DNA from: Candidatus Pacearchaeota archaeon
GTDB lineage: Archaea; Nanobdellota; Nanobdellia; Pacearchaeales; GW2011-AR1
Reading direction: 5' to 3'
Assembly: GCA_038869755.1 (NCBI GenBank)
Contig: JAWCQN010000005.1
Coordinates: 1-53,643, forward strand
Length of the DNA stretch: 53,643 nucleotides
Of the stretch, positions 36,001 through 39,000 are shown piece by piece. The position numbers are program-made. Each line of letters opens with the position of its first letter. Within the stretch, counting starts at the first letter, position 1.

Positions 36001-39000
36001 ATTTTATAAGGGTAACAAAATAGAAAGATTTATAAACTATCTATACCTCTGATTTATATCACCTCTTTTTCCCCAATAGAGGCAATTCAGCATACTTTTT
36101 GTTCGTTGGATTCCCTCTACTGGGGTTTGATACTCATTAAATATAACTTGAAAAAGTTTAGTAGCCCATTATTTTTTTAAATTCTGGGCTGTTATTTATA
36201 TTATTCATTTACTAAGAATTATATTCTAAATCTTTTTATCCCCCTCATAGCGTCCCTGTGTCTTAACATTTTTCTGGAAAGATAGTATTGTTCTGGCGTT
36301 AGTGAATAATTATCTGTCTTATACCATTCAGAGACTTTATTTTCATCATAAATTTTTTTAACTGGCTCATATTTGACTATATTTTCTACCATTTTTAATC
36401 TACTCTTTTTTACATTATTAATAAGGTATTTTTTATTTCTTTGTTTTAAATTCAGTATAATGGCACTTTCCGCAGTATATTCTGTTATCAGCTTCCATTA
36501 AGAATATTCCTGGTCCGCATCTTGGACAGCTCATTTTCCTCTTTAAAGCATTCCCTTCAATTTTATATTTTAAATATTTCTTGCTTGCAGGTTTGTTTTT
36601 GTGCGGCTTTTTTCCTTTTTTTTCGGTTTTCTTTTTCTTTGCCATTTTGATTTATAGTTCTTCGTTTTTCTTTTTTTCTTCAATAATTTTTTTTCTTTGT
36701 TTTCTTGTTACAACTTCATATTTATCTTTACTTTTTTCATCAGTATAAATTTTTGCTTTAACTAAGAATTTATGTGTTCCAAAATTACATTCTATTTTAT
36801 CAATGATTATATTATTGATATTTTTTTTCAGTTTACCTGAAATTTTTTCGGCAACCTCTTTTTTTGAAGGAGTCTTTTCTGATTCAAGAGTAGCCACTAT
36901 TTCATCTCTGTTTAATAAAGCATTTTCTTTAATTTCTAATACTTCCATTTTCAATTTTAATGTCTTTAATATACAATTAACAGATTGTTATTTTTTTTGT
37001 ATATAGTCTCCATTCTTATTAAGATGAAGATTTTTCGCAAATTCTGACTTTTCATGGTCAAAAATTATAACTCTTCCTCTTAATTTTTCCATTATAATTT
37101 TATTTAATTTTCTATCTTCTTTTATACCGGTTTCTTTTATTTCTTCCATTTTATTTCTTCTTTCCTTTTACTTTTTCATCCCTTTCAGCTATTTTTGTAG
37201 TTTTTTTCTGCTTCCTTTTTTCTTCTTCTATCCATTCAATTTTCCCAAGTCCTGGTTGTCTCATTGTCAACCCTATTTTTGGCTCCCCTAACTTATAGCT
37301 TATTGCAACAATTCTTGCAATGCATAGGTCTCCTTTTTTCAGGGATTTTTTATTAGTTTTTCCGACTAAAGTATTTGTTTTTGAAAAACTAACATAGTCG
37401 TCCATCGTTTGGCTAATATGGATCATACCCTTTATAGCACCAAGATCAATAAATGCTCCAAAGTTTGTAATTTCAACTATCTCTCCATAAACAAGTTCCT
37501 GTATTTCCGGTTTCCATATAACTAATTTAAAATTTGATTTATAGTATGCAGCCCCATCTCCCGGGATGATGATTCCTTCTTCAATTTTCTTAACTCCTGC
37601 TACTGCTATTACAATTCCAAGTTCTTTGTCATAATAGTTTTTATACGTTTCTTTTAGCTGTTTTTCTACTGCTTCATGAGTTGGTAATCCGAATAATATG
37701 GGTTCGACCCTAACATAATCTTCAACATCTACTAAATAAAACATTTTAATTATTACATAACTTGTTTTTTATATTAATATAAAGTGGTAAAATTAGGTTT
37801 ATAAAGCTTTTTAAAGCTTTTATTATATTTTATAAATATATTCTGCTTCAACATTTCCATCCAACGATTCTCTTCTATTCCTTTCTAATATTTTTTTAAT
37901 GACTCTTTCTTTTAAAATGGCTATGTATACATGTTCTTCGCCCTCATCCATCATTTTGCTTATTTCTTTACTATATATAGCATTATATTCAGCCAAACTA
38001 GGGTAATTATACCTTCTCTTATTTAATTCTTCCTTTAATCTTGATATTTTTCTTTCATTTCTGTTGTACGGAGGTTTTATTAATTCCCTTATATAACTCT
38101 CCATTATTTTTTCATCAGTCAAAAAATATTTTATGGCCATTTAAATTTATGAACCGGTTGATTTATAAGTTTTGTTAAACTAACATTCAAGAATTAATTT
38201 TTTTTTCTGCCTTATAGTTAGAAATTTTACACCCTTTATTTTTGATTTTATCTTTTCTTTTAATTCTCTATCAAGTGTTGCGATTATAATATCAGGGTTT
38301 TTTATAGTATAAGATATAATACCATAATCCACATTTTTTGATCCTAAAACTATATTTTTATACCCTCCTTTCTTGATCAAAAATAAGGAAAGCTCTGCAG
38401 ATTCCCTTTCTTTCAGGGTTGCTTTTTTGCTTTCTTTTATTTTTTCTAATTCATCCATAATTTCTGTTGGAATCACAATTTTGTATTCAGGAAAATCTTT
38501 TCTTATAACTTCAAATAGCTGTATTTTCTGTTTAATGCCTGATAAGATAAAATTTGTATCTAACAATATTTCCATATATCCTATAAACAAAAGACATATT
38601 TAAATAATATCTTTCTTTCTTAATCTAATGCAAGAACATAAGCATGTTATCCATATTTTTCAGGAAGCAAAGAAAGCTGCCCAAAATAACGATACTCTTG
38701 CATTGAAACAACTTAGCAATCAGACAATTCATAGCTCAGCCATTTATCATGATACTGATAACATTTTGGTTGCAATTGTTTTATATGCACTAAGCAAACT
38801 AATTGAAAGAAAGGACATGTTCTCAGAGATAGAATACAAGAAATATCTGAATTATTATTTTAATACAATAGATGAATCAATTGAGTGTATTTCAAAGAAT
38901 AAATGCGATATATTTAGGAGTAAAATAGGCGGTCTTTCAGACATAAAAGGCCTTTCAGGAGATTTGAGAAGGAGTGTAGAGGATGTTTTTAGAAAAGCTC

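What a model noticed while it worked through the whole genome (the two positions that open the first line are those of the whole stretch)
36988..37149. Zinc-free Spt4 in a whole genus
The gene in the Spt4 (rpoE2) slot between rpo7 and rps24e keeps the C-terminal Spt5-binding half but has no cysteine; a charged tail replaces the zinc knuckle. I read it as a working zinc-independent Spt4 fixed in this genus. If true, the zinc site thought integral to Spt4 is dispensable in a natural elongation complex.
Evidence so far: g00412 (53 aa) has homologs in 18 of 21 genus genomes. All 6 that I translated have no Cys and share LRGRVIIxxPExSEFAKNL, and the 3 whose neighbours I mapped sit between rpo7 and eS24 (121). 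Three relatives of other genera have a normal two-CxxC Spt4 at the same place with the matching C-terminal motif (116). The Pfam Spt4 model misses G000 but hits 4 of 4 other genera (115). The upstream DNA shows no Cys-rich frame (116).
(Added by a program. Inside this text positions count along the whole contig: contig position 1 is position 1 of the stretch shown here. "Call 12" and the like, gene names such as g00115 and contig names such as C1 are that model's own, and its searches are not shown. The text may have been shortened before it was handed on; [...] marks where a part breaks off. The agent that wrote the report below was given it as the finding of a first reader that could run no searches.)

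Follow-up and report, generated by a model that had tools for sequence, protein, structure and literature searches.

The report
Spt4 repeatedly lost its zinc knuckle
In a genus of tiny uncultured archaea, and separately in several related lineages, the gene for the transcription elongation factor Spt4 has lost its four zinc-binding cysteines yet stays conserved and is predicted to still bind its partner Spt5, so a zinc site thought essential to this protein is likely dispensable in nature.

Summary
The 53-aa ORF at 36988-37149 (-) sits between rpo7 and eS24 and is the genome's only Spt4. It keeps the Spt5-binding strand, helix and invariant Ser but has no zinc knuckle. All 18 genus genomes with an assembled locus are the same, as are 93 of 93 close database clusters. 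The core is under purifying selection (pN 0.23, pS 0.66). A predicted complex with the genome's own Spt5 NGN domain passes (0.61 against 0.01 for the best control), though this pair resembles solved structures.

Four other genera of the family (4 of 140 read) and members of four other families also lack the site. Trees need 3-5 separate events, and one origin is rejected. The replacements differ: a disordered tail plus one short strand, a conserved hairpin, or in-register substitution. Spt5 changed at nearby positions. Other zinc sites in this genome are intact, so this is not a general zinc purge.

No binding or expression was measured. New variant of a known factor; not found in the papers searched.

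The parts
36988..37149 (-). spt4 (rpoE'') orthologue without zinc knuckle, 53 aa
37105..37149 (-). residues 1-15: charged, unconserved N-terminal tail (9-45 aa across the genus) where the two CxxC would be
   Evidence: low pLDDT (53)
37090..37104 (-). residues 16-20: genus-conserved (L)EKI-type segment, predicted beta-strand
   Evidence: columns -9 to -7; strand E16-20; weak structural alignment to the start of solved Spt4
37057..37077 (-). residues 25-31: strand predicted to pair edge to edge with the Spt5 NGN sheet
37045..37047 (-). Ser35, equivalent of M. jannaschii Spt4 Ser39 that bonds to Spt5 Glu46; invariant in 22 of 22 aligned Cys-free proteins
36991..37044 (-). residues 36-53: helix and last strand; the canonical F/Y-A-I ending is replaced by Y-x-Q/K/E
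37151..37744 (-). rpo7 (rpoE'), upstream neighbour; its stop lies 1 base before the spt4 start
36652..36954 (-). eS24, downstream neighbour
36433..36645 (-). eS31 (S27ae), keeps both CxxC: internal control against a general zinc loss

Best explanation
This gene is the genome's Spt4 orthologue, cut down to its Spt5-binding half with no cysteine zinc site, and it likely still works by binding the edge of the Spt5 NGN domain and stabilising it on the elongating polymerase. Shown: position, single copy, loss of all four Cys, conservation of the binding strand, helix and Ser, purifying selection, repeated independent loss. Predicted: residues 25-31 extend the NGN sheet and residues 16-20 form a strand that closes a small three-stranded sheet. 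Inferred: the zinc knuckle only props up Spt4's own fold, so it can go once that strand and a few changes in Spt4 and Spt5 cover the exposed surface; the protein would largely fold on binding Spt5; the tail is likely filler. The likely cause is relaxed need for a rigid Spt4 followed by compensation, not zinc saving.
For: Slot rpo7-spt4-eS24-eS31 as in 135 canonical relatives. The profile of Cys-free proteins hits only solved Spt4 chains, 5 of 5 rows, best 3lpe_B 28-54, E 1.2e-6. In the M. jannaschii structure the sheets align edge to edge and Ser39 bonds to Glu46 (PMC2896526); Ser is invariant here and the Spt5 Glu is kept in 80 of 80 NGN domains read. pN < pS in 153 of 153 genus pairs; second codon positions differ least (0.16 against 0.49 at third). 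No internal stop or frameshift in 18 of 18; no CxxC in 93 of 93 top clusters. Complex: 0.61 against best control 0.01; such a mark was reached by 116 of 157 solved and 2 of 215 mismatched pairs; runs agree in 97% of contacts; partner pLDDT 64. Spt5 column 24, in the predicted interface, is I/L/M/V in 17 of 20 genus and 8 of 8 g123 genomes but 3 of 48 canonical ones; His37 is lost in 20 of 20 against kept in 46 of 48. Several origins.
Against: No experiment. The complex pass may come from memory of solved Spt4/5 and shows likeness, not that this copy binds. The monomer model is modest (pLDDT 74.6, pTM 0.45; four of five models 58-66) and its fold matches are weak (Foldseek best E 0.25; VIA Z 2.2). 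The core diverges somewhat faster than in canonical pairs at equal Rpo7 distance (0.33 against 0.28; 0.39 against 0.31), which fits mild relaxation. The Ser35-Glu46 pair is not among the 25 best-resolved contacts, although both residues are in the interface list. The Spt5 changes in this genus are one event on one branch, and the column-24 change is missing in g83 and g131. In yeast, loss of any one Cys causes loss of function (as cited in PMC2896526).
Confidence: 0.8

Rival explanations
1. A decaying remnant: Spt5 works alone here, like bacterial NusG, and the ORF is on its way out.
For: Archaeal Spt5 without Spt4 still stimulates elongation in vitro (PMC2896526). Core divergence is a little raised and the last strand has lost its hydrophobic pair. 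Genomes are small (0.6-1.3 Mb).
Against: Intact in 18 of 18 genomes and 93 clusters; pN 0.23 against pS 0.66; nine invariant positions in 18 sequences; start codon kept when an ORF is inserted upstream. Genus g123 holds a Cys-free form with 81% mean column identity.
Confidence: 0.05
2. Kept but repurposed: the charged tail has a job of its own at the upstream DNA exit (DNA mimicry or histone handling), or the peptide now binds another partner.
For: The tail is rich in D/E and K/R and reaches 45 aa, about 100 aa in one database protein (P0010). Spt4 lines the upstream DNA exit in eukaryotic structures (PMC6150629 passages). The genome has a short histone-like gene.
Against: Tail length (9-45) and whole-protein net charge (-10 to +6) vary freely. 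The conserved residues are those of the Spt5 interface. The other Cys-free lineages have no such tail.
Confidence: 0.08
3. Zinc is still there: bound through non-Cys ligands, across the Spt4/Spt5 interface, or by a knuckle supplied in trans.
For: Genus Spt5 has a new Cys at NGN column 57 (20 of 20) and often His at 22 (11 of 20). A stand-alone 55-aa zinc ribbon in the genome weakly matches the knuckle (E 0.035). A degenerate archaeal zinc ribbon can keep weak zinc binding (Haloferax TFE-alpha, PMC5861453).
Against: No conserved His or Cys in the genus Spt4: 14 of 18 have no His, 16 of 18 no Cys; 62 of 93 clusters have neither. Column 57 is not in the predicted interface. The stand-alone ribbon also occurs in 3 of 5 genomes with canonical Spt4, so it is an older separate family.
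Confidence: 0.04
4. On the cause only: selection to spare zinc (or avoid thiol oxidation) drove the loss, as with Cys-free ribosomal paralogues of bacteria.
For: The loss is repeated. In family f30 both Spt4 and eS31 lost their Cys (2 of 2 such genomes where eS31 was in the locus).
Against: In this family eS31 keeps four Cys in 17 of 17 complete genus copies and 13 of 13 other Cys-free genomes. This genome keeps CxxC pairs in TFS, TFB, TFE-alpha, eL43, uS14, NrdR, eIF2-beta and others. There is no four-Cys paralogue to swap with.
Confidence: 0.12

Closest known systems
Archaeal Spt4 / RpoE'' (Pfam PF06093, NCBIfam NF041664; solved 3LPE, 4ZN1, 3P8B, 3QQC, 1RYQ)
   Same: Gene slot after rpo7; Spt5-pairing strand, helix, invariant Ser; predicted edge-to-edge sheet with NGN.
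   Different: No CxxC pairs, knuckle deleted rather than substituted, disordered charged tail, changed last strand; scores below both curated cut-offs, so many records call it 'hypothetical protein' (some JGI records do call it Spt4).
Haloferax volcanii TFE alpha/beta (PMC5861453; abstract and Discussion read)
   Same: An archaeal basal transcription factor that lost or degraded a 'critical' metal centre and still forms its heterodimer.
   Different: Different factor; there the zinc ribbon stays and binds zinc weakly. Here the knuckle is gone and the loss recurs with different replacements.
Cys-free forms of zinc ribbons: Topo_C_Rpt versus Topo_C_ZnRpt (PMC9369019, abstract); zinc and non-zinc ribosomal proteins (PMC3087516, search listing only; Zur-controlled paralogue swapping is recalled)
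   Same: A structural four-Cys site replaced during evolution while the protein is kept.
   Different: Here a single-copy orthologue with no zinc-bound paralogue. Only the in-register type (g83, f37, f48, f50) resembles these; this genus removed the module.
Bacterial NusG (monomeric; PMC7289017 passage)
   Same: Shows that an NGN domain can work with no zinc-finger partner.
   Different: Here Spt4 is kept under selection and Spt5 keeps the Spt4-binding Glu.

Membership tests
Spt4/RpoE'' | Sequence homology of the C-terminal half to solved Spt4 | tested here: met
   3lpe_B, E 1.2e-6; 22 of 22 members match NF041664 at E<=1
Spt4/RpoE'' | Position directly after rpo7, before eS24/eS31 | tested here: met
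Spt4/RpoE'' | Four-Cys zinc site (two CxxC) | tested here: not met
   0 of 18 genus proteins, 0 of 93 clusters. It is therefore filed as a variant orthologue, not as a canonical zinc-finger Spt4.
Spt4/RpoE'' | Curated model cut-off (Pfam 25 bits, NF041664 50 bits) | tested here: not met
   15.1 and 25.2 bits
Spt4/RpoE'' | Conserved Ser facing the conserved Spt5 Glu | tested here: met
   Ser35 = M. jannaschii Ser39; Glu kept in Spt5
Spt4/RpoE'' | Fold: small sheet plus helix | tested here: inconclusive
   13 of the top 16 Foldseek rows shown before rank 17 are Spt4-containing entries at ranks 1-13, but best E 0.25; VIA Z 2.2, rmsd 2.7, 35 aligned
Spt4/RpoE'' | Stable heterodimer with Spt5 NGN; stabilises it; aids elongation | not testable with these tools
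   Only predicted: 0.61 against 0.01, possibly from memory of solved pairs
Zur-type Cys-free paralogue | A zinc-bound paralogue in the same genome | tested here: not met
   No second Spt4 found in the 93%-complete assembly

The most novel reading that the evidence does not exclude
Spt4 in this genus has become a roughly 36-residue fold-on-binding cap for Spt5 whose freed, charged, disordered N-tail sits at the upstream DNA exit and has taken on a new job in handling DNA or the short histone, an archaeal parallel to the disordered charged tails of eukaryotic elongation factors; the several Cys-free lineages are independent natural experiments in rebuilding Spt4/5 without metal, with convergent compensation in Spt5.
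Probability: 0.12. Interest if true: 0.78.

Novelty: new variant of a known kind. Interest (0 to 1): 0.56.

Why it matters
Spt4 is described as a zinc-finger protein with nearly invariant cysteines, orthologues are identified by that finger (PMC13289920 passages), and the site has been called an essential structural element (PMC2896526). Natural orthologues without it separate the two halves of the protein and ask directly what Spt4 adds to Spt5, which bacteria use alone. The series seen here (four Cys, three Cys plus His, one Cys, none in register, hairpin, deleted knuckle) gives ready-made constructs for the established recombinant archaeal system. In practice, model-based surveys will score Spt4 as absent in these lineages. 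The surprise is moderate: loss of structural metal sites is a known theme, including in an archaeal transcription factor.

Tried and rejected
Frameshift or mis-called start hiding the knuckle: no CxxC in any frame upstream, same anatomy in 18 genomes. Second canonical copy: none found. Knuckle split off as its own gene: the candidate at G000:C1:9264-9428 is present in 3 of 5 canonical and 5 of 5 genus genomes. One origin for all Cys-free forms in the family: rejected, p-AU 3.5e-5. General zinc purge: not seen; NMD3 and eS27 were not found with their Pfam models in this assembly, so they could not be scored. Link to histone loss: the Pfam histone model hit 6 of 21 genus and 2 of 14 other Cys-free genomes against 30 of 45 canonical ones, but scores sit at the threshold, and a profile from those hits finds a copy in this genome at E 1.4e-21, so the contrast is not reliable and I dropped it. 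A single-sequence search of solved structures found nothing; the profile did. Expression: no RNA holder listed. The first bootstrap tree timed out; supports quoted are SH-aLRT or FastTree values. PMC2743916 (yeast structure) is not held.

Full report
Observation. The minus strand carries rpo7 (37151-37744), a 53-aa ORF (36988-37149), eS24 (36652-36954) and eS31 (36433-36645). The ORF starts 1 base after the rpo7 stop and has no Cys; no frame on either strand of 36900-37330 hides a knuckle. Pfam Spt4 aligns residues 12-46 to model positions 33-67 at 15.1 bits (cut-off 25). A profile of 135 canonical family Spt4 finds it at E 4.6e-9 and nothing else above E 0.035 in the 627-kb, 93%-complete assembly. 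Records that carry this protein type are titled Candidatus Pacearchaeota, Nanoarchaeota or Woesearchaeota archaeon by their depositors, which places the lineage among the small DPANN Nanoarchaeota.

The genus. Anchoring on Rpo7 to avoid bias, I found rpo7 in 19 of 21 genus genomes; 18 have the downstream DNA. All 18 encode a knuckle-less Spt4 of 48-83 aa. Sixteen have no Cys and two have one Cys in the C-terminal half; 14 have no His. In the other three genomes the locus is not assembled and the Spt4 query found nothing. A database search with the genus alignment gave 113 clusters; the 93 with E <= 2.2e-12 have no CxxC and no Pfam label, while 18 of the 20 weaker ones are canonical. The anatomy is a charged tail of 9-45 aa with no fixed sequence, then a conserved 36-residue core.

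What the core is. A profile of 22 Cys-free proteins hits five solved sequences, all Spt4, best 3lpe_B residues 28-54 (E 1.2e-6), which aligns Ser35 with M. jannaschii Ser39. In that structure the Spt4 and NGN sheets align edge to edge, Ser39 bonds to Spt5 Glu46, Spt4 stabilises NGN against heat, and Spt5 alone still stimulates elongation (PMC2896526, parts 2 and 3 of 5 read). Ser is invariant in all 22 and the Glu is present in all 80 NGN domains read. Over the 36 codons pN is 0.23 and pS 0.66, pN < pS in 153 of 153 pairs (not independent). Against this, the core diverges a little faster than canonical cores at equal Rpo7 distance (0.33 against 0.28; 0.39 against 0.31).

Remodelling. Relative to 134 canonical proteins (one left out, no anchor), the genus replaced the aromatic before the binding strand (F/W/Y 121 of 134; I/L/V 18 of 18), lost the A-I of the last strand, and fixed a short E-K-I type segment. 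AlphaFold2 predicts strands 16-20, 26-29, 47-51 and helix 36-40 (pLDDT 74.6, pTM 0.45). Foldseek ranks Spt4-containing entries at 1-13 but none reaches E 0.001; VIA aligns model 19-53 to 3lpe_B 3-58 at Z 2.2, a weak hint that the new segment takes the place of the first strand. The predicted complex with the genome's own NGN scores 0.61 against a best control of 0.01 (mark reached by 116 of 157 solved and 2 of 215 mismatched pairs; contacts agree 97%; partner pLDDT 64). Spt4 25-31 pairs with NGN columns 30-35 (column n = Spt5 residue n+1). Like complexes are solved, so the pass shows likeness and not that this copy binds.

Spt5. It is otherwise ordinary, but four NGN columns separate the genus from 48 canonical genomes: 22 (R/K 0 of 20 against 48 of 48), 24 (I/L/M/V 17 of 20 against 3 of 48), 37 (His 0 of 20 against 46 of 48) and 57 (Cys 20 of 20 against 0 of 48). 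Columns 24 and 37 are in the predicted interface; 22 lies between interface columns. Column 24 is also hydrophobic in g123 (8 of 8) and g90, but not in g83 or g131. This fits compensation, but it rests on two or three events and was not tested statistically.

Not one genus. In a sample of 149 other genera of the family (one genome each) I read 140; 136 have two CxxC and 4 have none, all in the same slot. Nine had no assembled locus. Following up the four: g123 9 of 9 (10 genomes, one without locus), g83 2 of 2, g90 and g131 one genome each. The replacements differ. g83 keeps canonical length with the Cys replaced in register. g123 has a conserved N-half (81% mean column identity) predicted as a hairpin 5-12/15-23 (pLDDT 72.6). 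Five-protein trees (Rpo7, Spt5, uL11, eS24, eS31) put this genus in one clade and the other four apart among canonical genera of another clade; five changes are needed, at least three forced by branches with support of 95 or more (44 and 43 rows chosen by me from the genomes with Spt5 in hand). One clade for all Cys-free forms is rejected (p-AU 3.5e-5). A three-protein tree of 153 rows agrees. g123 and g90 share a Y-G-A ending, so they may be one event or a transfer; hence 3-5. Direction (loss) is inferred from the four-Cys state of the surrounding genera and of solved archaeal and eukaryotic Spt4.

Beyond the family. Of 146 class genomes, 138 pass the Pfam cut-off. I fetched 20 with weak or partial matches, so this is no census. 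Seven lack both CxxC: three in f30, two in f37 (one Cys left), one each in f48 and f50 (the last without rpo7 or eS24 detected nearby). Eight have one CxxC with His, Asp or other spacing at the second site, four are canonical and one is cut by a contig end. Among 83 hits in the 50%-identity library, 51 have no CxxC, but that search was biased to them and some look like truncated or mis-started calls.

Why. Not a general zinc purge in this family: eS31 keeps four Cys in 17 of 17 complete genus copies and 13 of 13 other Cys-free genomes, and this genome keeps CxxC pairs in TFS, TFB, TFE-alpha, eL43, uS14, NrdR and eIF2-beta. Family f30 differs: there eS31 lost them too. No paralogue, no split knuckle, no reliable histone link (see Tried and rejected). 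The simplest reading, inferred, is that the knuckle serves Spt4's own stability, which matters less in these cells, and is lost whenever a substitute packing arises.

Known work. Spt4 orthologues are identified by their zinc finger and the Cys are called nearly invariant (PMC13289920, passages); Spt4 is a zinc-ribbon protein that stabilises NGN and may touch upstream DNA (PMC7289017, PMC6150629, passages). The nearest precedent is Haloferax TFE (PMC5861453, abstract and Discussion). Searches for Spt4 with Pacearchaeota (0 papers), Woesearchaeota (1, listing only), DPANN (4), 'zinc-free' (0), cysteine/zinc/archaea, zinc ribbon/loss of cysteine, and RpoE2 showed no description of a Cys-free Spt4; I judged most rows by listing only, the library lacks most subscription papers, and I opened no supplements (the conservation figures of PMC13289920 could bear on this). 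An unchecked note of this scan reports Spt4 zinc loss with other zinc losses in another genus; it prompted the eS31 test and is not support.

Verdict. Real, fixed, selected, and recurrent. A working zinc-free Spt4 is likely (0.8) but untested. New variant of a known factor; interest 0.56.

Noticed in passing
L004:1223-1489 (-), and the matching spacer in L011 and L013: An acyl-carrier-protein-like ORF (Pfam PP-binding, E 1.3e-5, D-S-L motif) is inserted between rpo7 and spt4 in 3 of 18 genus genomes and in no other of 155 loci with enough upstream DNA. The three are quite unlike each other.
   Followed up: partly
G000:C2:1264-1467 (L324); L303-L322: Short histone-fold-like proteins of 55-62 aa ending in R-[RK]-T-L-x-x-R-D-L with nothing after it; they score at or under the Pfam histone threshold, so surveys would miss them.
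   Followed up: partly
L283, L284, L285 (family f30): Very short Cys-free Spt4 (about 48 aa); eS31 has also lost its CxxC pairs in the two loci where it was read.
   Followed up: partly
L273, L274, L275, L279, L280, L286, L288, L290: Intermediate Spt4 zinc sites in other families: CxxC plus CxxH, CxxD plus CxxC, or widened spacing.
   Followed up: no
L078-L097 (Spt5 NGN column 57); L115, L232-L241 (column 56): A new Cys in NGN helix 2 in 20 of 20 genus Spt5, and at the neighbouring column in 5 of 8 g123 Spt5; absent from 48 canonical ones. Unexplained.
   Followed up: no
G000:C1:9264-9428 (L323:865-1029, -): Stand-alone 55-aa four-Cys ribbon protein of no named family, found in 5 of 5 genus and 3 of 5 other genomes tested.
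   Followed up: partly
window 37823-38140 (-), 38180-38590 (-), 39194-39871 (+), 36219-36392 (-): Upstream of rpo7: a 105-aa ORF of no family and a PIN-domain gene; a 225-aa ORF with a D-S-G-T-L-I start that looks PIN-like (recalled) but has no Pfam hit; a 57-aa ORF of no family after eS31. No gene lies between spt4 and eS24, where many archaea have a dephospho-CoA kinase gene (recalled).
   Followed up: no
whole G000 assembly: NMD3 and eS27 were not found with their Pfam models (assembly 93% complete).
   Followed up: no
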